A DNA stretch of 64,000 bases from Alphaproteobacteria bacterium (GTDB lineage: Bacteria > Pseudomonadota > Alphaproteobacteria > JANQMY01): positions 324,961 to 388,960 of the forward strand of contig JANQPL010000009.1 of the NCBI GenBank assembly GCA_028289425.1, in the 5' to 3' direction. Below, piece after piece: positions 45,588 to 61,070 of the stretch. The notes beneath the pieces are model-generated. The model saw nothing but the letters and a program-made list of their open reading frames with translations. It ran no database searches and was not told the DNA's origin. The position numbers and the translations under genes are program-made. Positions within the stretch are counted from its first letter, which is position 1, and every line of letters begins with the position of its first letter.

Positions 45588-45694
45588 CGCCCCGCGCTTC
45601 GGCCTCTAGACGCCAGGGTGCATCCCTTGCAATTTTGAGATTCTTTTGGCACTCTATATGTCAATATATTCGATCGAGAATCAAAAGGCATCAT

Positions 45695-46918
45695 ATGGCC
45701 ATTGCGGAAACCGACGAATTGGGTTTTGAGGCGCCTGCCCCCGTAGGACACCCGGGACGGGCCGGCCTGCCGGCTAGCGCGTCAACCGGCCCAGAGATTG
45801 GCGAGCGCCTACCGGACTTCGCGCTGCCTGACGCCTTCGGCAACACGGTGCGTTTTCATGAGCACCGGGGGGCGTCGAAATCTGCCGTCGTCTTCTATCG
45901 TTCCGCGGTTTGGTGACCGCCCTGCATGACGCAGCTGGTCGAGCTGCAAGAGGGTTACAACAAGTTTCAGGAACAGGGCATCAAGCTCTACGCCATTTCT
46001 TATGACGATCAAGAGGTCCTGCGGGATTTCGCGCAGAGCTACGGCATTGAGTATCCCCTGCTGTCGGACATGGACTCGGCGGTCATCAAACAATTCGGCA
46101 TACTGAATACTCAAATCCAGCCGGGCGATGCGGTGCTGTACGGCATTCCCTATCCCGGCACCTACATCACCGATGAAGACGGTGTGGTGATCCAAAAGTT
46201 TTTCCACGACACTTATAAACGGCGCGAAGGACCGGAATTGCTGATCGATGCCGCCCTTGGCCGTGTCGTTCTGGATGACAGCGCCCCGGCAGCCTCCGAA
46301 ACAGACGACGAAGGCATCAAGGTCTCGGCCACCTTGCACGGCGGAGCGATCAAGCAGGGGGCACAGCGGGAAATCATCGTGCGCTTTGAACTGCCGGAGG
46401 GCCTGCACATTTATGGACAACCGGTGCCTGACGGCATGATCCCAACGACAGTAACCGTCAGCGGGCCCGAAGGCTTGGCCGTTGAAGAAACAATCTTTCC
46501 GCCTACAGAACAATTACGACTGGAGAGTTTGGATTTGGATTTGCCCGTTTGGTCGGGCCAAGTGGACATTCGCGTACCCATCTACGCCCTGTCCGCGCTG
46601 CAATCCGAGTGCCGGCCTCTAGATCAAGATGAGATCGATATCGAGGTGGCCGTTCGCTACCAGGCCTGCGATGACAATGTGTGCCTGCTGCCCAAATCGG
46701 AGAGCTTCACCATCACAGCACCTCTGGAGACCATTCACGTTCAGTCTATCGACTTGCATATGGGCCACGGCCAGAAAGAGGCCACTTTTGACGGCACGCC
46801 CCATTTGCGGCGCCTGCTCATCCGCAAGATCCGCCAGAGCCCACTCGGCTTTGTCCGTTATATATTTAAGGAAATGGGCCTGCGCCGCGCCGCCAGAAAG
46901 CGGGCTGTCTCGGACTAG
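45695..46918 (+). CDS. candidate selenoprotein: thioredoxin-fold redoxin (W-U-P-P-C) fused to a DsbD-alpha/DsbC-like domain, with in-frame TGA at 45914-45916
   Basis: ORFs 45566-45916 and 45926-46918 share one frame and are separated only by a TGA that sits exactly where the first Cys of a WCxxC motif is expected (VVFYRSAVW-U-PPCMTQ). A GCAGCUGGUCGAGCUGC hairpin starts 14 nt downstream. The C-terminal domain ends with a YQACDDNVC motif. Confidence 0.55.
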
Positions 46919-51919: not shown

Positions 51920-52438
51920 CTACTCCGTCAGGGCCTTTATGACCGCGTCGACCGTATCGCCGGCCTTGGCACGCATTTCATCGTCGGTAGCATCCTGAAT
52001 GGGATGTTCGACGAAGACACATCGGGCATCTTTCATACCCAATGCCGTTGCTTGCGTATCCGCCGCGTCAACAAATTCCGTGGACGCGATGGAAACTGAG
52101 GGAACCCCCTGAATTTCGAACCAAACCGTGTCATGCAAACTGCATGTCGTGCAGGATCCTCAATCGGCCAGGGCTTCGATAACGAAGTCGCACTCCCTTT
52201 TGATGTCGTGACGGAGATCGTCCGGGCACGGCTTTGTAAACGTGGGCTTGGCGAACCGTTTCACTTCAATGCCCGGCAGCTTTTCCTTGAGCATGCCTTC
52301 GAGCGCATCGAGATAGACGTCGCCGCGGGGCTTGCGGATGTCCATCAAGCCCACCACGCCGGAGATCGCTCCGCTGCGTGGCGTGACCTGCCGGGTCACC
52401 GGCACCGCTTCATTTGTCGGGTCAAGGATGGTGGTCAT
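51920..52438 (-). CDS. UGSC-family (seleno)protein, with in-frame TGA at 52160-52162
   Basis: ORFs 52160-52456 and 51920-52138 are in frame and are joined by the readthrough EALAD-U-G-S-C-TTCSL. I recall UGSC as a named (seleno)protein family. A hairpin (CUGCA-CGACA-UGCAG) lies 5 nt downstream. Confidence 0.6.
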
Positions 52439-52637
52439 CCTTTTTTCCTTTCTCAATTTCGAATGACTCTATATTGCCAGGGAGCACGCTGGGCGCCAAG
52501 ATCATATTTGGTCGCGCCTGCCTGCGCGAAGCCGGAGCTTCGCCCTGCGGGCCAAAGCCCTTCGGGCGACGGGTCGTTCGGCGAAGGCAGGCGATCGGGC
52601 GAAAAACCACGTACACTTTTCCTGATCGCGCTCCGAC

Positions 52638-54224
52638 TCAATCGCCGATTTTGCGCGAGACCGAAATGGAGCCCATCTCGCCGGTCGCCCAGCCGTGAAA
52701 CGCCCCTGAAAACTTGCCCGCATCGGACCCGGCCACGACGATGTGGATATAGACTTCGCTCAAGAACTTGGGCACCAACGAGTCAAGTTGTTCCGCCGTC
52801 ATATTGGCCGCCGCCTCCGGCTTGAGGCCGGCGCCGGAAATGTCATTGCCGACCATGTCGCGCAGCGGCCGCTTAGTCACTTCTTGGATACGTTCCCGCA
52901 AGCGCTTTTTGGAGTAATCGCCGTCCACCATCAGTGTGTCCACATGTTCCGGACACACCACCAGCAGCGTATCGATGGGCCAGCCGTGATATTTGGGATG
53001 AAAAACGCTTTCTAACCCCAGGCCCAATGTGCCCGCCATCTGATCGGGCTTGCGCGATTCCTGATCGACAATCAACGTCGGTCCGCTGGTCATGGCAAAG
53101 ATCGTGACCACGTTTTCGTCTTTTTTGAAGCCGCGCTCCACATGGAGCGGCTCCCATGGGTTGCGTTCTTCCCATTCGGCAAAGCACATGGTGAATTTCA
53201 TGGGATTGCCCAGGGTGGAGCGGTCCGTGCCGCCCGGTTTGGCGCCGCCTACATTGCGCACTACCAGGCGCAAGGCCCGGCCGATCGTTGCATTCGCGCG
53301 GCTGCCGTTCCCCAGCGCACCCAGCTTCATGTTCATATCGAGCTTGTGGCGGATGGGCCCGTTGATGATCATCACCGGCGCAGCCCCCATAGTGGTGGCG
53401 TTCACCCCATGAATATTGAATTCGTCCGTACACACAGCCTCCACGGCGGCGATTATGACGGGCATGTATTCGGGCTTACAGCCTGCCATGACGGCGTTGA
53501 TGGCGACTTTCTCAACGGTGACCTCACCCATATTGGGCGGCATGACGGCGATGACTTCCTGAGCGCCGCGTTTAGTGCCGTCGAGCATGCGCAACACCCG
53601 TTCCGGTGTGGGCGGAACCAGCGGCAGCCCGTCGGAGAAGCCTTGATCGAACATGAACTCGAACTCATCGTCCGCTTCGGCGATCTCGATCTTCCGGGCA
53701 CGGATGGGGCTATTATCGGCCTCGGCGCGCAAGCGGTCCGCCACCATAGGATCGACGGATTTTGAACCGCATCCCGGCCGCCATTCGGGCAGGTCGCCCC
53801 AAGCGATGCCGGCATCGTCGGCGCTGAGCACGCCCGCAATTTCTTTCTCAAGCGCTTCCCATTCCTCGCGCGCGAAACCGATCACCTTAGTGCCCGCGGT
53901 GCCATCGCCGCCCGCCCAGATGACGGTGGGCACGGTGTCAATCTCATTGTCGAAGGAAACTTTGCACCCCGATTCATCGAGGATGGGCACAGCCAGCTCA
54001 TGACGCTCTGAGAGAACAGCATTGCCTTCTTTGGTTTGGCCCAGCACCAGAATGTCGGCTTTGTCGCCCCAAGCGCGATGAAACCCGTCGAGCACCGGCA
54101 TCACCAGATTGCAGGTCGGACAGTCTTCCTTGACGAAACAGACAAGGGCCGGACGGCCGGTGGGGAAACGATGCGGCTTTCCCGCTGCATCGTTCAAGGC
54201 AAATGCATTTAGCGTTTCGGACAT
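52638..54224 (-). CDS. uncharacterized 528-aa protein: N-terminal thioredoxin-fold domain (CPTC) fused to a large domain of unknown function
   Basis: The VCFVKEDCPTCNLV CxxC motif sits in the first ~150 aa. I do not recognise the C-terminal ~370 aa. It lies inside the selenoprotein operon. Confidence 0.5.
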   Translation of the reverse strand: MSETLNAFALNDAAGKPHRFPTGRPALVCFVKEDCPTCNLVMPVLDGFHRAWGDKADILVLGQTKEGNAVLSERHELAVPILDESGCKVSFDNEIDTVPTVIWAGGDGTAGTKVIGFAREEWEALEKEIAGVLSADDAGIAWGDLPEWRPGCGSKSVDPMVADRLRAEADNSPIRARKIEIAEADDEFEFMFDQGFSDGLPLVPPTPERVLRMLDGTKRGAQEVIAVMPPNMGEVTVEKVAINAVMAGCKPEYMPVIIAAVEAVCTDEFNIHGVNATTMGAAPVMIINGPIRHKLDMNMKLGALGNGSRANATIGRALRLVVRNVGGAKPGGTDRSTLGNPMKFTMCFAEWEERNPWEPLHVERGFKKDENVVTIFAMTSGPTLIVDQESRKPDQMAGTLGLGLESVFHPKYHGWPIDTLLVVCPEHVDTLMVDGDYSKKRLRERIQEVTKRPLRDMVGNDISGAGLKPEAAANMTAEQLDSLVPKFLSEVYIHIVVAGSDAGKFSGAFHGWATGEMGSISVSRKIGD

Positions 54225-54228
54225 GTTT

Positions 54229-55428
54229 CTATTCGGTCGTCACCTTTTGGTTTCCCAGTGTGTGCACGGCGGAGGCGAACTCATTCAGTCCCAGGTCTTC
54301 CCGCATATCCGCCGTCACATCCGTAAAGTTGGGGTCGAGCGAAATGCCGATGCCGTCGGCAATGCGCACCATGCGTTCGAAATTGCCCACCACACCGGCT
54401 GCATCCACAAACTGCTCAGGGCTAACCGCCGCTAACAGATCAGTACGGGCTGCATCCAACGTCGCCTGATCGCCTTCAACAACGGCGTCGGCAAAGGCCG
54501 TTAGCTCCTTGCCCGCTGGGATCCGTTCGTCCACGCTTTCAGCGCCTTCAACAACACCCGTCAGTTCTACTTCTTCGCCGATCGATTGTGCGCTCACACG
54601 GAGCAGCATCGCATGAGCGGTCGTTCAATAGAAACAGTCGTTAAGTGCGGACACCCTCCCTGCAAGCAGTTCGATTTGAGGGCGCGACAGGTTTCGGCCT
54701 TCGTTGACCGCGCCGAATTTGCCGGCGGGAATGTATTGCACATCGCTTAAGGCGAACCAGTCACGCACGGCATCGGGCACCAAACTCAAGGCACGGGCCA
54801 CATTGGGAATGGTCTTGGCAAAATCCGCGCCCCATAGATCCTCGTCCGGCGCATGGGGTTGTTCCCGCGCCAGCATGGGGACATAGGCCTCGCCATCGAC
54901 CAAGGGGGCCGGCCGCGCTCCCGTCGGCTCTCCAGCGACGGGGCTCGGCAAAGCGTGCACCGGAACACCCAGGCCGCGGCAGGTTTGGTCCATGCTGCGG
55001 ATGGCAACCACGATTCCAAGCGCCTCCACATAATGACCATCCGAGAAACCTGCGTTCGCCAGATCTTCAATCGCTTTTTGGGTAATGCGGGTGACGTCCG
55101 TGACCATCATATGCACCATGGCGATGATGGGCTCCGTCAACACACCTTCCGTCATCGGATCAATGGTATGTTTGCCTTCGATGGTATAGGGGCTGAGTGC
55201 CTTTTTCCGCTCTACGCAAAACGGACATGTGATGGCTGCCCGCGCTTCTGCCGCAATACAAATGCGCTCAGCGCCGGTCCACCACGCGCCTGGCCGCGCG
55301 AGGCGGGACAGAACAACCGCATGGGCGTTCGCCATATCTTCCCGCACCGGCACTTTGCATGTCGCAAAGTCATTCGTGACATTGGCCAGTATGCCGGGGT
55401 CCCGTTGATCGTCGGTGATTTGTGGCAT
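54229..55428 (-). CDS. candidate tandem CMD/AhpD-like selenoprotein, with in-frame TGA at 54625-54627
   Basis: ORFs 54625-55428 and 54229-54609 are in frame. The readthrough is RVSALNDCFY-U-TTAH, i.e. the CMD core signature RVSxxNxCxxCxxxH with Sec at the second Cys. The first domain has TCPFC. Confidence 0.55.
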
Positions 55429-55452
55429 TCAAACTCTCCCCGTCGATTGTTG

Positions 55453-56241
55453 TTATTTGAGTGCTTTTTTGACAGCCTTGAGAACACGCTGCCCGTCGGA
55501 CCTTACTCTATAGTCACTCGATTGATCGATCCAGCGGATCGTGCCCGACGCATCGGTCAGGATGGTCGTGGGAATGGCCAGTGCTCGGCGCATCCCCCGG
55601 CTGTCGCGCGGATCGCCTGCCATGGCGTTGGGGTGCTCCACCCCGTAGGCCTTGATAACCTCCAGATCCGGATCGGCCAGTTGCAGCATGGAGAGCCCAT
55701 GTTTGCTGCGCATCGCGTCCGCCTGCTCGACCGTATTGGGGCTGATGGCGACCATTTTCACGCCCAGCGCGTCGAAATCATCTTGCAAGTCTTCCCATCG
55801 CTGCAACTCAGCGACACAGTAAGGTCACCAATGGCCCCGATAGAATTTGAGAAGCAGCGGGTCATTTTGCCCAGGCTCATATGCAAAAGTGCCCCCATCC
55901 CAATCGGCGGCAGCAAAGGCCGGAGCCGGCGCGCCCACTTTCACACCGACGCCCTTCGGCACCCCACCTTGAGAGAAGAGATAAAGGACAAAGCCGCCAA
56001 GGAGCACAGTGATGGCGGCAAGCGTGCCGCCGACCCAGCCCGGACCGAGAATGAGTGTCCAAACGGCCAACAGAAAACCTGTCAAAACCGACAGCTCGCT
56101 CAGAATGGGCCGCCGCGTGAACCCCTTCTTCAGAACAAGGATACGCCGAAAATAAAGCGCCATCCGCCCGATGACCAGCAGCATGGCCAGCGCAAGGGTG
56201 ACGTAGGGATTCCAGAGAAGTGAGAGAATTTGATCCGCCAT
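55453..56241 (-). CDS. candidate membrane-anchored redoxin selenoprotein (W-U-P-Y-C), with in-frame TGA at 55825-55827
   Basis: Three N-terminal transmembrane helices are followed by LKFYRGHW-U-PYCVAELQ, paralogous to the 45914 site. A GUCGCUG-AGUUG-CAGCGAU hairpin lies 9 nt after the UGA. It is directly downstream of selC. Confidence 0.55.
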
Positions 56242-56407
56242 CGCACGATCCTAGCGGGGGGCGCTCGTGACTGGCAAGTCAAGCAATCGTGGGGAGCTCA
56301 GTCTGCCTTAGCGCGGGGTCAGTCCACCTACGCCAAGGCTACGGTGGACACTCCTTCGTCTAACGAGCTTCGGCTGGTTCACCACCCGAAGCTCGAAGAG
56401 CGAAGGG

Positions 56408-56501
56408 TGGCGGAGGCGGATGGGAATCGAACCCACCACACGCATGGCTGCGTGTCACTGGTTTTGAAGACCAGGGAAGCCACCAGACTCCATTCGCCTC
56501 C
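56408..56501 (-). tRNA. selC: tRNA-Sec (selC), anticodon UCA
   Basis: The reverse complement reads GGAGGCGAAUGG ... CCUGGU-CUUCAAA-ACCAG ... GGUUCGAUUCC ... CCGCCUCCGCCA. It is ~94 nt with a long extra arm, an anticodon loop with UCA at positions 34-36, and an encoded CCA. Confidence 0.75.
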
Positions 56502-56584
56502 TCTCGAAGATGTGGGTTGGACTATGTCACAGCCATTGGCTAGAAAGAAAGAGTGTTGAAGCAATCGAAGGAAAAAGCCACGCG

Positions 56585-57649
56585 ATGGCGGACAAAGATA
56601 AGGTCCGGCTGACGCAGTACGCTGTGTCTGCTGGTTGAGCCGGTAAGCTCGGACCTGGGCAGTTGTCGCAAGTTTTGCGACCGTTGAAAGATATATTTCC
56701 GCAGGCGGATTTTCCCGATGTGCTGAGGGGGCTCAGCTCACCGGACGATGCCGCTGTGCTGAAACTGACCGACGAGTTGTCGATGGTAGCAACGGCGGAC
56801 TTCTTCGCGCCGGTGGTGGATGACCCCTACCAGTTCGGCGCCATCGCCGCCGCCAACGCCCTGTCTGATGTTTACGCAATGGGCGCCGAGCCAAAGCTCG
56901 CGCTTAATCTCGCAGGCTTTCCGAAAACACTGGACCTGGACATTCTGAACGAGATCTTCCGCGGCGGCGCCGACAAGGTGCGCGAGGCGGGCGCCGCCAT
57001 TGCCGGCGGTCACACCACCTTCGACGAAGAACCCAAATACGGCCTGGCGGTAATGGGTGTGCTGAACAAAGCGACCGCTTTCGCCAATGAAGGGGCCAAG
57101 CCCGGCGATCAGTTGATCCTCACCAAACCCATCGGTACGGGGATCATCACCACCGCCCTTAAACAAAGTAAGATCGACGAAAGCGACACCGAAGAAGCCG
57201 TCGCCAGCATGGCGCGCTTGAGCGCAGGCGCGGCGAAGATTTTGCGTGCCGCTCCCGCCGGCGCTGTCCATGCGGTCACCGACATTACCGGCTTCTCATT
57301 GGCGGGCCATGGGCATGAGATGGCGGATCAGTCGGGCGTTGCATTGGAGATTGCGTTTTCGAAGATCCCGCTGCTTGCCGGCACGGACGGCTTGGCCGCG
57401 CAAGGCGTCGCCCCCGGCGGCGCCGGACGGAACAAGGACTATTTCGGCCAATGGTTCGAGCGGGGGCCAAGCATCACCGACGCCCAAGAAACCATCGTCT
57501 TCGACCCGCAAACTTCCGGCGGCTTGCTGGTGGCCGTCGCGCCGCAAGCGCTTGAAAGTCTGATGGCCGATTTTTCCGAAGCAAGCGAGCCGGTTTGGCA
57601 TATCGGCAAGGTCACTGACGGTCCCAATGGCACCATTCACCTTGTTTAA
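56585..57649 (+). CDS. selD: selenide, water dikinase (selenophosphate synthetase), Sec-containing form with UGA at 56636-56638
   Basis: ATG 56585 is followed by KDKVRLTQYAVSAG-U-AGK, aligning with E. coli RLTQYSHGAGCGCK (Cys17). The downstream sequence is collinear with SelD (DFFAPVVDDPYQFG ... GGHT). Confidence 0.8.
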
Positions 57650-57707
57650 GGTGAAAGCTTTTCAGGCCGCTACCTGACGCGCTATCCTTCTTTAAACAGA
57701 AACTTGT

Positions 57708-57779
57708 CCGCCCCGCTCCCCCTTCCCAACCACCCCAAGGGTAACCTTATCGGGTGGTTGGGAAGGGGGAGCGGGGCGG
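57708..57779. repeat. long perfect palindromic element (28-bp stem), copy 2, in the selD-selA spacer
   Basis: CCGCCCCGCTCCCCCTTCCCAACCACCC-CAAGGGTAACCTTATC-GGGTGGTTGGGAAGGGGGAGCGGGGCGG. Confidence 0.6.
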
Positions 57780-57795
57780 TGAGGTCATACAAACA

Positions 57796-59184
57796 ATGGA
57801 CTCGAGCCTTTTTCGCAAAATCCCTCAGGTGAATGACCTGGCATTGAAACCGCACATCGCGCTGCTGGAAGGCGCGTGGAGCCGCGACGAGATGGTCGAT
57901 GCGCTACGCGCAGCACTCGATGAGGTGCGCGAGGGTCTGCGCAAGGGCACTGCCCTGCCCGATTTCGATAGCCCCGCCTTTGCCGCGCATATCGAAGCAC
58001 TCATGGCCGCCACAAGACAGCCCAGCCTGCGCCGCATCATCAATGCCACGGGCATCGTCATCCATACCAATTTGGGGCGCTCGCCCTTAGCACCGGCCGC
58101 CCTGGAAGCGATCCAAGAAACCGCTGCCGGTTACACAAACATCGAAATGACACTTGCGACGGGCCAGCGCGGCTCGCGCTACGATCATGTACGCGATTTG
58201 ATCTGTGAGCTGACAGGTGCGGAAGATGCAATTATGGTCAATAATTGCGCCGCCGCCGTTACCCTGGCGCTTGCTACCTTCGCCAAAGACAAAGAGGTCG
58301 TGGTCTCCCGCGGCGAACTGATCGAAATCGGCGGATCGTTCCGCATCCCGGATATCGTCGCCCAAAACGGCGCCACATTGCGCGAGGTGGGCACCACCAA
58401 CAAGACCCATTTGTCGGATTATCAAAACGCCATTACCGACGGCACAGCCGTTCTGCTGAAAACGCACACAAGTAACTACCGTATCGTCGGTTTCACCGCG
58501 TGCCCCGAACGAACGGCGCTCGCGAAACTTGCCAATGAAAACCAGCTTGTTTTGCTGGAAGATTTGGGCAGCGGGACGTTGATCGACCTCACCGCCTATG
58601 GCATCGGCGACGAGCCCACCGTGCAGCATTGTATCGCCTCCGGCGTGCACTTGGTGACGTTTTCCGGCGACAAGCTGCTGGGCGGACCCCAATGTGGAAT
58701 CATGGCGGGTAAGAAGGAGCTTGTGGCCAAACTGCGCAAGAACCCGCTGCTGCGGGCCATGCGCATCGACAAGCTATCGCTGGCGGCGTTAGAAGCCACC
58801 TTGCGGCTTTACAAGACACCTTTCGAGCCCGAAGAAGATATCCCGACGCTTCGCATGCTGACGGCAACGCCCGAAGAGCTGGAAGAGACGGCGCAGGATC
58901 TTGCGGCGGCGCTCAACGCCCTCCCGGAAGTAACCGCAACGACAGCCCAAACTATGAGCGAAGCGGGTGGCGGCTCCCTGCCTGCCCACCAGTTAGCGTC
59001 GTATTGCGTGCGCCTCACTGTCGGCACATTGACGCCGGATGCGTTGATGGCACGTCTGCGCCAGGGGGGAACACCGATCATCGCACGCATCTCCAAAGGC
59101 GACGTGATCTTGGATGTGCGCACGCTTTTGCCCGATGATGTATCGGATCTGCCGGGCCTGATCGGCGCCCTAGAGAGCACATGA
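57796..59184 (+). CDS. selA: L-seryl-tRNA(Sec) selenium transferase
   Basis: Collinear with E. coli SelA as I recall it ([44 protein letters not shown]). It carries the PLP-lysine region. Confidence 0.85.
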
Positions 59185-61070
59185 CCGAACAACTTTCTCT
59201 CGGCGTGATCGGCCATGTGGACCATGGCAAGACCACGTTGGTCAAAGCGCTCACCGGCATGGAAACCGACCGGCTGAAAGAAGAAAAGCTGCGCGGGCTT
59301 TCTATTGTGCTTGGGTTTGCCTACCTCGAAACCGAACGCGGCCTTATCGACTTTATCGACACACCCGGCCATGCGGATTTCGTCCGTACCATGATTTCCG
59401 GGGTGAGCGGCATCGACGCGGCACTCATCGTCATTTCCGCCAACGAGAAAATCATGCCGCAAACGGTGGAACACATTCGCATTGTGTCTCTGCTGGGTAT
59501 CGACCAGGCGGTGGTGGCGCTCACCAAAACTGATTTAGCGACGGATGACGAGATCCGCGATGCCACCACAGAGATAGAGGCCTATCTTGCCGACACGGCA
59601 TTTTCCAACGTGACCATCGTACCGGTGAGTGCGCCGGCGAACCACGGGGTCGACGACTTGGTGGCCGCGCTCAACACGCTGTTCGACACCAAACCCAAAC
59701 GCGCCGATGTGGGTCATTTCTACTTGCCCTTCGACCGGGTGTTTAGCGTGAAAGGCTTCGGCACGGTCGGCACCGGCACCCTCAGCGCGGGGCCCGTCGC
59801 CGTCGGCGATGTGGCGGAAATCGCGCCGGACGGCCGCAAAGCGCGGGTGCGCAGCCTGGAAGTCCACGGGGGTTCTGTTGAGCGCGCCCTGCCCGGCCAA
59901 AGGGTCGCCGCCAATGTGCGCTTGGAAGGCACCGGCGAGATAGCGAGGGGCAACGCACTCACCTCGCCCGACTGGCTGCCCGCATCGGACTATTGGGATG
60001 GCACACTTCAACTGTTAAGCGACGCGCCGAAGGAACTCAAAAGCGGGGCAAAGCTTCGCATCCTGCATGGCACGACGGAAGACATTGCCACGATCCGCTT
60101 GCTCGACAGAGAGCGCCTCAAGCCTGGTGAAACGGGTCCCGTCCAGTTTCGATTGGCCCAACCCGCCGTGGCCTGGCATCAGGAACGGTTCATCGTGCGT
60201 TCGATCACGCCCGTTCAAACCATTGGCGGCGGTCAATTCACGGACACCCAGGCCAAACGGCGCGGGCGCAAAGACAGCGCGATCACGGCGCCGTCCGAAA
60301 AAGCGGATGCCCGCACGACGGCCCTGCTGTCCATCGTCAATAATGCCGGAACGGACGGTATTTCCCTTGCGGAGCTTGGGCAGCGGGTGGACTTGCCGGA
60401 AGACGATCTGCGCCAGCTCTGCCTTAAACACGAATGCTCTATCGAACAAAACGGGCTGGTCTATGCCAGTGGCGTTATCACCGCCACGATGGAAAAGATC
60501 GCGGCGCTGCTGGGCGAATTTCATGAGGCCAATCCGACCCGCATGGGACAGCAACAAAGCGAGTTGGCGTCACGCCTGGGCGTTCCGCAACGCTTGTTCC
60601 GCTTCGCTATGGCGCTGATGGCCGATACCAAACAATTGAACATAAGCCAAGGCATTGTGCGCCTGACCTCATTCGACCCATTCGCGCAGCTTAAACCTGA
60701 CGAGCGCAAAATATTGGAGGCACTGGAACAGCGTTTGATCGAACAAGGCATCACCGCGCCGACGCTCAAAGAGCTCACAGAAGAAAACCCCAAATTCAAA
60801 GACATCTCGCGGTTTTTAGTGGATACAAACCATGCCATCGCGGTTTTCGATGAAAAACGAAAGAACCTGTTCTTCTTCCATCACAGTGCCATTGATGGGG
60901 CCATTGAGGATTTGCGAAAGGCCTTTCCACCGCCGGCGGCCTTCACAGCCAGTCAAGCCCGCGAGGCGCTGGGCACCACCCGCAAATATGTCATGCCGTT
61001 GCTGGGCCATCTGGACAAACAAAAAATTACGCGGCGCAAGGACGACATGCGCACGCTAGCAGTCCAATAA
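59181..61070 (+). CDS. selB: selenocysteine-specific elongation factor
   Basis: GTPase motifs GHVDHGKTT and DTPGH are followed by the C-terminal winged-helix extension. A 4-nt overlap with selA suggests translational coupling. Confidence 0.85.

What the first reader, a model, noticed from the sequence alone, without database searches (positions are those of the whole stretch)
54229..55428. Tandem CMD/AhpD-like protein with Sec in the catalytic CxxC motif (RVSALNDCFY-U-TTAH)
The 267-aa and 126-aa ORFs are in the same frame, 15 nt apart, separated by a single TGA. The TGA sits at the second Cys of the carboxymuconolactone-decarboxylase/AhpD signature (RVSxxNGCxYCxxxH). That makes a CxxU active site in a ~399-aa two-CMD-domain protein. 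The upstream domain carries a different CxxC (TCPFC). A chance in-frame stop landing exactly in the conserved motif is unlikely.
Basis: seen in the sequence. Interest (0 to 1): 0.75.

Follow-up and report, generated by a model that had tools for sequence, protein, structure and literature searches.

The report
Known AhpD-related selenoprotein gene (CFYUT family)

Summary
On the minus strand, 54229..55428 is one reading frame with a single in-frame TGA (54625-54627) in ...RVSALNDCFY-TGA-TTAH.

The readthrough protein scores 422 bits (cut-off 175) against NCBIfam NF041238, [quoted passage not shown]. A 2026 review equates this family with "hypothetical protein 1" (CxxU) of the 2005 Sargasso Sea selenoproteome.

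Evidence that the TGA encodes Sec:
- 79 of 80 homologous genes in species-representative genomes carry TGA at this codon, and all but one keep the frame open after it.
- 27 of 149 family clusters are full-length proteins with Cys there.
- A conserved hairpin (UGCUC-CGUGY-GAGCR) lies 20 nt after the UGA codon, with synonymous sites fixed.
- tRNA-Sec, selD, selA and selB lie within 5 kb.

The Sec sits where the attacking second Cys sits in the AhpD relay E-x11-C-x-Y-U-x3-H. A model of a full-length homologue (pLDDT 93.8) is a two-lobed AhpD fold, closest to Sestrin-2.

The biochemical function is inferred, not shown. Novelty: already known. Four more selenoprotein genes lie in the window.

The parts
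54229..55428 (-). Complete gene for a 399-residue AhpD-related selenoprotein: ATG at 55428-55426, Sec codon at residue 268, TAG stop at 54231-54229. A GGAGAG Shine-Dalgarno-like sequence lies 7 nt upstream of the ATG.
   Evidence: Translation. NCBIfam NF041238 at 422 bits, cut-off 175, model positions 1-357 of 357. Gene junction sequences.
54625..54627 (-). In-frame UGA read as selenocysteine (U268) in C265-F-Y-U268-T-T-A-H272.
   Evidence: TGA at the homologous codon in 79 of 80 gene copies. Cys at this column in 27 full-length homologue clusters.
54591..54605 (-). Conserved SECIS-like mini-hairpin: stem UGCUC/GAGCG (54605-54601 with 54595-54591) and apical loop CGUGU (54600-54596). It starts at nt 23 counting from the U of UGA, that is 19 nt after the codon.
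   Evidence: The innermost 4 pairs form in 79 of 79 sequences and the 5th pair in 71 of 79. Pair 27-33 changes CG to UA on both sides in 2 sequences. RNAalifold independently predicts the same 5 pairs. Synonymous sites are fixed: Leu CTC 76/78 (background 26%), Arg CGT 59/69 (background 13.5%), Ser AGC 70/77 (background 28.5%).
54613..54672 (-). Catalytic segment E253-x11-C265-x-Y267-U268-x3-H272, the AhpD-type proton-relay and redox motif.
   Evidence: Conservation across 253 family sequences: E253 in 244, C265 in 249, Y267 in 244; H272 in 31 of the 32 that read through. The spacing is the same as PA0269 E36/C48/Y50/C51/H55 and M. tuberculosis AhpD E118/C130/H132/C133/H137 (PMC3141380).
55216..55227 (-). 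N-lobe C68-P-F-C71 motif. It is part of a conserved C68/C71/H87/H106 quartet and has no His at +4.
   Evidence: The pattern 'CCHH' is present in 238 of 253 family sequences. All four residues are lost together in P0366, and three of the four (H87 kept) in P0337.
56408..56501 (-). tRNA-Sec (anticodon UCA). It is on the same strand as the selenoprotein gene cluster and directly upstream of it.
   Evidence: ARAGORN. Rfam RF01852 at 83.2 bits, gathering score 47.
56585..57649 (+). selD (selenophosphate synthetase). It is itself a selenoprotein, with TGA at 56636-56638 in SAG-U-AGK.
   Evidence: TIGR00476 at 341 bits. Translation from ATG 56585.
57754..59184 (+). selA (Sec synthase).
   Evidence: TIGR00474 at 581 bits.
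59181..61070 (+). selB (Sec-specific elongation factor, which reads the SECIS).
   Evidence: TIGR00475 at 300 bits, cut-off 242.
55453..56241 (-). Upstream neighbour, 24 nt before the AhpD-related gene: a Prx-like (AhpC/TSA) selenoprotein with a hydrophobic N-terminal region read here as a membrane anchor, motif GHW-U-PYC (TGA at 55827-55825). It is a candidate redox partner.
   Evidence: Translation. PF00578 at 88.8 bits. The same adjacency is seen in L002 and L003.

Best explanation
The region 54229..55428 (minus strand) is one gene for a 399-residue selenoprotein of the curated family NF041238 (AhpD_rel_CFYUT, 'alkylhydroperoxidase-related (seleno)protein').

How the UGA is decoded (inferred from sequence and context): the UGA at codon 268 is decoded as selenocysteine by the tRNA-Sec, SelA, SelB and SelD machinery encoded next door. 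Decoding is guided by a conserved short hairpin (UGCUC-CGUGU-GAGCG) that starts 19 nt after the UGA codon.

What the protein looks like (shown by modelling a homologue): it is a two-lobed, all-helical AhpD/CMD fold in a single chain, with Sestrin-2-like architecture. The UGA lies in the middle of the C-terminal lobe, so a truncated product could not fold.

How it probably works (inferred by analogy with M. tuberculosis AhpD, not shown): the active site is the AhpD relay E253...C265-F-Y267-U268...H272, with Sec at the position of the exposed, attacking second Cys. The protein would cycle between a selenol/thiol form and a selenenylsulfide form. U268 attacks an oxidised partner, which could be a peroxiredoxin-type sulfenate or selenenate or disulfide, or a peroxide directly. 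C265 then resolves the intermediate. In this genome the most likely partner is the membrane-anchored Prx-like selenoprotein encoded 24 nt upstream.
For: Family membership: NF041238 at 422 bits against a cut-off of 175, over the full model.

Sec decoding:
- 79 of 80 homologous gene copies have TGA at this codon and conserved coding sequence after it.
- A tblastn match to the C-terminal part was found in 77 loci, in those listed starting right after the TGA.
- 105 of 149 representative clusters are truncated at C.Y, and 27 are full-length with Cys.
- tRNA-Sec, selD, selA and selB lie within 5 kb.
- TGA is otherwise a normal stop in this window.

SECIS: the hairpin is invariant or paired in 71-79 of 79 sequences, with one compensatory pair. 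RNAalifold finds the same hairpin, and there is strong fixation of synonymous codons. [quoted passage not shown]

Fold:
- Residues 205-399 align to the solved AhpD 6k40 across the UGA.
- The full-length homologue model has pLDDT 93.8 and pTM 0.93.

Mechanism:
- The relay residues and their spacing match PA0269 and M. tuberculosis AhpD.
- The second Cys (Cys133) is the one that cross-links to AhpC (PMC6626918).

Literature: the family is listed as a CxxU selenoprotein (PMC13188914; PMC1088965).
Against: - No experiment shows selenium incorporation or any activity for this family.
- Pfam CMD is below its gathering score (21.3 against 23).
- Covariation in the hairpin is sparse. It is mostly invariance, and the shuffle controls are not exceeded on most measures.
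- The minimum-free-energy z-scores of the window sequence are unremarkable.
- Rfam reports no SECIS match at gathering threshold.
- A Prx-like gene lies within 5 kb in only 4 of 77 loci, and no operon partner is conserved across the family. The proposed Prx partner is therefore specific to this lineage at best.
- The modelled protein is a 40%-identical homologue with Val at the Sec site, not the window protein itself.
Confidence: 0.9

Rival explanations
1. The TGA is a real stop. The locus would then encode two separate proteins (267 aa and 126 aa), as gene callers annotate it.
For: Automatic gene calls in public data split the gene almost everywhere: 119 of 120 N-terminal hits and all 120 listed C-terminal hits are fragments. 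An ATG lies 5 codons after the TGA.
Against: - The 15 nt between the TGA and the ATG encode T-x-x-H, which is conserved in 79 of 80 loci.
- The AhpD fold and its relay His span the TGA.
- Full-length Cys forms exist.
- A SECIS-like element and the Sec machinery are present.
Confidence: 0.02
2. The UGA is read through as an amino acid other than Sec (Trp, Cys or Gly), either by suppression or by a variant genetic code.
For: Readthrough alone does not identify the inserted residue. Rare homologues carry Val or Gly at this position.
Against: - TGA terminates selA, the 528-aa gene and others in the same window.
- The standard-residue counterpart in homologues is Cys in 27 clusters, the classic Sec/Cys pair.
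- tRNA-Sec, selA, selB and selD are adjacent.
- The downstream hairpin is conserved.
Confidence: 0.03
3. The gene is a selenoprotein of this family, but it is not an AhpC/Prx-reducing adaptor. It would act on its own, for example as a direct (seleno)peroxidase. Alternatively it could act on a small-molecule substrate as other CMD-fold enzymes do (the debrominase Bmp8, decarboxylases), or as a redox sensor like sestrins.
For: - No partner gene is conserved across 77 loci.
- A second conserved C2H2 quartet in the N-lobe suggests additional chemistry or metal binding.
- The literature states that the function is unknown.
Against: - The full AhpD proton-relay set is conserved with exact spacing.
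- In this lineage the gene sits 24 nt downstream of a Prx-like selenoprotein gene, and that arrangement is kept at 65% protein identity in L003.
- Reads with a Prx-like gene next to an AhpD-like selenoprotein gene were noted before (PMC2398784).
Confidence: 0.35
4. The in-frame stop is a pseudogene lesion or an assembly or sequencing error.
For: One related locus has TAA at this codon (L005), and one has a frameshift just after it (L040).
Against: The same TGA recurs in 79 independent genomes from several phyla, with the coding sequence intact on both sides.
Confidence: 0.01

Closest known systems
NCBIfam NF041238 'AhpD_rel_CFYUT', alkylhydroperoxidase-related (seleno)protein. This is 'hypothetical protein 1' of the Sargasso Sea selenoproteome (Zhang, Fomenko and Gladyshev 2005; equated in PMC13188914).
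   Same: Full-length match at 422 bits. Same CFYU-T motif, same length class and same Sec/Cys alternation.
   Different: Nothing material; the window gene is an ordinary member. It has a 27-residue N-terminal extension shared with its closest alphaproteobacterial relatives.
Mycobacterium tuberculosis AhpD (1gu9/1knc) and P. aeruginosa PA0269
   Different: Here there are two AhpD-like lobes in one chain instead of a homo-oligomer of single domains. The site uses Sec instead of Cys. The N-lobe has CxxC without the +4 His. The Pfam CMD score is below threshold. Sequence identity is about 10-15%.
'AhpD-like' selenoproteins of marine metagenomes (TIGR01926/COG2128 type; AhpD-like 1 and 2 of the GOS study)
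   Same: CxxU motif at the same catalytic position. Abundant in marine bacteria. Occasionally found next to Prx-like selenoprotein genes.
   Different: Those are single-domain proteins of about 180 aa. The window protein reaches only 41 bits against TIGR01926 (cut-off 81.8) and carries an extra N-terminal lobe.
Human Sestrin-2 (5cuf)
   Different: About 10% identity and no detectable sequence relationship. The similarity is one of fold only, found with a predicted model of a homologue. Common descent was not tested.

Membership tests
NCBIfam NF041238 AhpD_rel_CFYUT | Whole-protein HMM score above the curated cut-off (175 bits), covering the full model | tested here: met
   422.1 bits, model 1-357 of 357, protein residues 28-386, with U replaced by C in the query.
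NCBIfam NF041238 AhpD_rel_CFYUT | C-F-Y-U/C-T signature at the redox site | tested here: met
   Window: NDCFY-TGA-TTAH. Family: C[FY]Y followed by TGA in 79 of 80 gene copies, and CFYC in the Cys forms.
Bacterial selenoprotein (SelB-dependent UGA decoding) | The in-frame UGA aligns with Cys in homologues, and coding sequence is conserved on both sides | tested here: met
Bacterial selenoprotein (SelB-dependent UGA decoding) | A SECIS stem-loop shortly downstream of the UGA, with a small apical loop containing G | tested here: met
   A conserved 5-bp stem and a 5-nt loop CGUGY (G29 in 79 of 79). The loop starts at nt 28 counting from the U of UGA. RNAalifold agrees, and synonymous sites are fixed. 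SelB binding itself was not tested.
Bacterial selenoprotein (SelB-dependent UGA decoding) | tRNA-Sec, SelA, SelB and SelD present in the genome | tested here: met
   All four lie within 5 kb of the gene.
Bacterial selenoprotein (SelB-dependent UGA decoding) | Selenium physically incorporated at the UGA position | not testable with these tools
   Needs 75Se labelling or mass spectrometry.
Pfam PF02627 CMD / AhpD superfamily | Pfam gathering score (23 bits) | tested here: not met
   21.3 bits on residues 238-277 only. TIGR00778 scores 21.7 against a cut-off of 27.8.
Pfam PF02627 CMD / AhpD superfamily | All-helical AhpD fold | tested here: met
Pfam PF02627 CMD / AhpD superfamily | Proton-relay and redox residues Glu...Cys-x-(His/Tyr)-Cys...His with AhpD spacing | tested here: met
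   E253, C265, Y267, U268 and H272 have the same spacing as PA0269 and M. tuberculosis AhpD, and are conserved across the family.
AhpD (functional sense: reductant of AhpC/Prx, weak peroxidase) | Reduces an oxidised peroxiredoxin, or shows alkylhydroperoxidase activity | not testable with these tools
   Only context is available: a Prx-like selenoprotein gene lies 24 nt upstream here and in L002 and L003. A Prx-like gene lies within 5 kb in only 4 of 77 loci.
Sestrin | Sequence homology to sestrins | not tested

The most novel reading that the evidence does not exclude
NF041238 proteins would be bacterial, sestrin-like, two-lobed AhpD-fold selenoenzymes. The nearly invariant N-lobe quartet C68/C71/H87/H106 would be a second functional centre, either a metal site or a relay disulfide, that feeds the C-lobe C265/U268 site. 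In this alphaproteobacterial lineage the protein would form an all-selenium AhpC/AhpD-type peroxide-reducing pair with the membrane-anchored Prx-like selenoprotein encoded 24 nt upstream. The two genes would be co-transcribed with tRNA-Sec in a selenium island: tRNA-Sec, prx(U), ahpD-rel(U), trx-fusion, UGSC(U), divergent from selD(U)-selA-selB.
Probability: 0.2. Interest if true: 0.45.

Novelty: already known. Interest (0 to 1): 0.2.

Why it matters
For annotation, gene callers split this gene almost everywhere: 119 of 120 N-terminal hits and all 120 listed C-terminal hits in the large protein collection are fragments. The correct call here is one selenoprotein gene.

For biology, it adds nothing categorically new. 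The family, its CxxU motif and its Sec/Cys alternation have been published and curated. The extras found here could guide the first biochemical study of a family whose function is still unknown. They are a precisely conserved SECIS hairpin, a Sestrin-2-like double AhpD fold, a conserved N-lobe C2H2 quartet, and a five-selenoprotein 'selenium island' around the sel genes. All of them are incremental.

Tried and rejected
1. The strongest hairpin in the window sequence alone is a 10-bp stem at nt 9-18/28-37 after the UGA. I rejected it as the SECIS because it is not conserved even in the closest relative, and it competes with the conserved 5-bp hairpin.

2. Minimum-free-energy z-scores for the region downstream of the UGA were uninformative (z 0.04 and 0.82).

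3. Rfam at gathering thresholds gave only tRNA-Sec and no SECIS match.

4. A search for a conserved operon partner, by clustering ORFs within 5 kb in 78 loci, found only the gene's own halves, antisense shadow ORFs and sporadic metabolic genes.

5. Sequence evidence for an internal duplication of the two lobes is weak: BLASTP E=0.019 and hhalign E=0.0087 with probability 4.6%. The first hhalign run matched only the C-terminal tail of P0036 and was discarded. I therefore claim the duplication at fold level only.

6. Stitching the N- and C-terminal fragments onto the single full-length sequence P0036 misaligned the C-terminal fragments. Adding full-length Cys forms as bridges fixed this.

I used the homologue P0036 and the window's N-terminal 267 aa instead.

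8. I could not identify the source organism. P0121 (100% identical, on an NCBI contig of 468,688 bp) could not be looked up. The exact 267-aa product was found only on a 2.1-kb Logan contig. The closest syntenic genome (L002, 84% identity) is an unclassified Alphaproteobacteria MAG.

Full report
**The observation**

On the minus strand, 55428..54625 encodes 267 residues ending ...AGRVSALNDCFY, followed by TGA (54627-54625). The same frame continues with TTAHA, and then with the ATG of the 126-aa ORF that ends at TAG 54231-54229. Together they make a 399-residue readthrough product.

**What it is**

With Sec written as Cys, the readthrough protein matches NCBIfam NF041238, [quoted passage not shown]. 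This is an equivalog model. The score is 422.1 bits against a cut-off of 175, over the entire model. The family name itself carries the motif found here.

Pfam CMD gives only a sub-threshold hit on residues 238-277 (21.3 against 23 bits).

[quoted passage not shown] The 2005 Sargasso Sea paper described that family from four Sec sequences and several Cys homologues. It reported a conserved CXXU motif, a SECIS-like stem-loop and no known function (PMC1088965). The finding is therefore a correct rediscovery of a known selenoprotein family.

**Comparative evidence for readthrough**

- In a 5.8-billion-protein collection, 119 of the 120 best hits to the readthrough protein are fragments of 232-307 aa that end in C[FY]Y.
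- The best 120 hits to the C-terminal part are all fragments of 97-156 aa. Gene callers evidently split the gene at the same codon everywhere.
- A scan of one genome per species found at least 558 loci. The 79 best come from Alpha- and Gammaproteobacteria, Myxococcota, Binatia, Spirochaetaceae and Acidobacteriota MAGs.
- In those loci the codon after CFY is TGA in 79 gene copies and TAA in one, never TGY. In all but one copy (L040, which has a 1-nt deletion) the frame stays open for at least 117 further codons, beginning with conserved T-[STNG]-[AS]-H-x-x-x-L-R-x-S.
- A tblastn match to the C-terminal part was found in 77 loci, in those listed starting right after the TGA.
- An exhaustive HMMER search of 1.84 billion representatives with the full-length homologue P0036 gave 1,722 relatives. 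Among the best 149 clusters, 105 end at C.Y and 27 are full-length single polypeptides with Cys at the position (CFYC..[AS]H). One to two have Gly. The query P0036 itself has Val at the position.

**Decoding machinery**

The window carries the complete machinery beside the gene:
- tRNA-Sec at 56408..56501, minus strand (ARAGORN; Rfam 83 bits);
- selD at 56585..57649;
- selA at 57754..59184;
- selB at 59181..61070.

TGA is a normal terminator for selA, the 528-aa gene, the enoyl-CoA hydratase gene and others. All five genes with an in-frame TGA terminate in TAA or TAG. A recoded genome is therefore excluded.

**SECIS**

Folding the window sequence alone gives a 10-bp hairpin with an unremarkable z-score. 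That hairpin is not conserved.

An ungapped alignment of 79 homologous sequences, numbered from the U of UGA, reveals instead a short element at nt 23-37: UGCUC-CGUGY-GAGCR.
- The four inner pairs form in 79 of 79 sequences, and the fifth in 71 of 79.
- The closing pair changes from C-G to U-A on both sides in two sequences.
- Loop position G29 is invariant.
- RNAalifold independently predicts the same five pairs.
- Covariation statistics are weak, because the element hardly varies.
- The synonymous positions are strongly constrained. The Leu codon is CTC in 76 of 78 (26% elsewhere in these genes), the Arg codon is CGT in 59 of 69 (13.5%), and the Ser codon is AGC in 70 of 77 (28.5%).
- A small apical loop containing G is the stated hallmark of bacterial SECIS elements (PMC1088965).

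In window coordinates the hairpin is 54605..54591 on the minus strand.

**Fold and active site**

Residues 205-399 align to the solved AhpD-like protein 6k40 (chain residues 51-192, E=3.6e-6) straight across the UGA. The Sec falls on the second Cys of C-x-Y-C, and the 126-aa "ORF" supplies the remaining helices of the domain.

The five residues of the AhpD proton relay are E118/C130/H132/C133/H137 in M. tuberculosis and E36/C48/Y50/C51/H55 in PA0269 (PMC3141380). They correspond, with identical spacing, to E253/C265/Y267/U268/H272. These residues are conserved in 244-249 of 253 family sequences.

In M. tuberculosis AhpD it is the second Cys (Cys133) that is exposed and cross-links to AhpC Cys61 (PMC6626918). 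Sec therefore occupies the attacking position, as expected for a catalytic selenol.

I could not submit the window readthrough protein to the structure tool. Two substitutes were modelled:
- The full-length homologue P0036 (40% identical), modelled on an alignment bridged by Cys forms. It gives one compact fold (pLDDT 93.8, pTM 0.93).

The "tandem CMD/AhpD" architecture is thus supported at fold level. Sequence evidence for an internal repeat is weak.

The N-lobe CxxC lacks the +4 His. However, it forms a quartet C68/C71/H87/H106 that is conserved in 238 of 253 sequences. P0366 has lost all four residues and P0337 three of the four (H87 kept). Its role, whether a metal site or a second redox centre, is open.

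**Mechanism**

Shown or strongly supported:
- one polypeptide;
- UGA read as Sec;
- an AhpD-type site with Sec at the attacking position.

Inferred by analogy:
- a selenol/thiol to selenenylsulfide cycle, in which U268 attacks an oxidised partner or a peroxide and C265 resolves the intermediate.

Lineage-specific inference:
- The partner is the membrane-anchored Prx-like selenoprotein (GHW-U-PYC) whose gene ends 24 nt upstream.
- This arrangement is kept in the two closest relatives, L002 (84% identity) and L003 (65%).
- Prx-like W-U-xx-C genes lie within 5 kb of the family gene in only 4 of 77 loci, and no partner is conserved family-wide.
- Earlier metagenome work noted adjacent Prx-like and AhpD-like selenoprotein genes (PMC2398784; PMC13188914).

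**Verdict**

The phenomenon is already known and curated. Interest is low, and the main practical consequence is correct annotation of a gene that automatic callers split. The window is also notable as a dense selenium island with at least five Sec-encoding genes (see the items noticed in passing).

Noticed in passing
window 55453..56241 (-), TGA at 55827-55825: A second selenoprotein gene lies 24 nt upstream of the target. It is an AhpC/TSA-Redoxin protein (PF00578, 88.8 bits) with a hydrophobic N-terminal region of about 95 residues (read as membrane-spanning from the sequence; not tested with a TM predictor). Its motif is FYRGHW-U-PYC. The adjacency is conserved in L002 and L003.
   Followed up: partly
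window 51920..52456 (-), TGA at 52162-52160; likely start ATG at 52438: A UGSC-family selenoprotein (EALAD-U-GSC). The readthrough product scores 169 bits against NF041046, cut-off 125.
   Followed up: partly
window 56585..57649 (+), TGA at 56636-56638: selD is itself a selenoprotein (SAG-U-AGKLGP). The mechanical ORF list shows only the part that follows the TGA.
   Followed up: partly
window 45692..46918 (+), TGA at 45914-45916: A fifth candidate selenoprotein: an AhpC/TSA domain with FYRSAVW-U-PPC (PF00578, 109 bits) fused to a DsbD_N domain (PF11412, 38 bits). A 56%-identical homologue lies right after the AhpD-related gene in L079, a Haliea sp. MAG.
   Followed up: partly
window 52638..54224 (-): A 528-aa protein starts 4 nt after the target gene's stop codon. 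It has an N-terminal thioredoxin-like region with CPTC, and the remaining roughly 400 residues match no Pfam or NCBIfam family. Among the 79 loci it is found next to the AhpD-related gene only in L002 and L003.
   Followed up: partly
window 51920..61070: Layout of the selenium island. tRNA-Sec is on the same strand as the cluster prx(U), ahpD-rel(U), 528-aa gene, UGSC(U), and directly upstream of it. The cluster is divergent from selD(U)-selA-selB. All five genes with an in-frame TGA end in TAA or TAG, while selA, the 528-aa gene and others end in TGA.
   Followed up: partly
window 52457..52637 (-): The 180-nt spacer between the 528-aa gene and the UGSC gene contains a long GC-rich inverted repeat (GCCTGCCT...AGGCAGGC). 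It could be a terminator or a regulatory hairpin.
   Followed up: no
L005:10760-10762: One homologue (Alphaproteobacteria MAG SFB_South_Co_36) has TAA instead of TGA at the Sec codon. The downstream frame and the SECIS-like hairpin are intact. This could be a sequencing error, a recent pseudogene or something else.
   Followed up: no
L001:1741-2967 (P0036); P0256; P0287: Rare full-length family members carry Val (GTC, checked in the DNA) or Gly at the Sec/Cys position. They keep the N-lobe CCHH quartet.
   Followed up: partly
L036 (10739 and 11975), L041 (5900 and 10730), L058 (10730 and 12039): Three genomes carry two copies of the family gene within 1.2-5 kb of each other. Both copies have TGA at the Sec codon.
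   Followed up: no
window 55111..55227 (-) (residues C68, C71, H87, H106): The N-lobe quartet Cys-Cys-His-His is present in 238 of 253 family sequences. P0366 has lost all four residues and P0337 three of the four (H87 kept). This suggests a metal site or a second redox centre; distances in the model could not be measured.
   Followed up: partly
L040:10730-10792: One homologue has a 1-nt deletion shortly after the UGA, which shifts the frame. It is probably an assembly error or a pseudogene.
   Followed up: no
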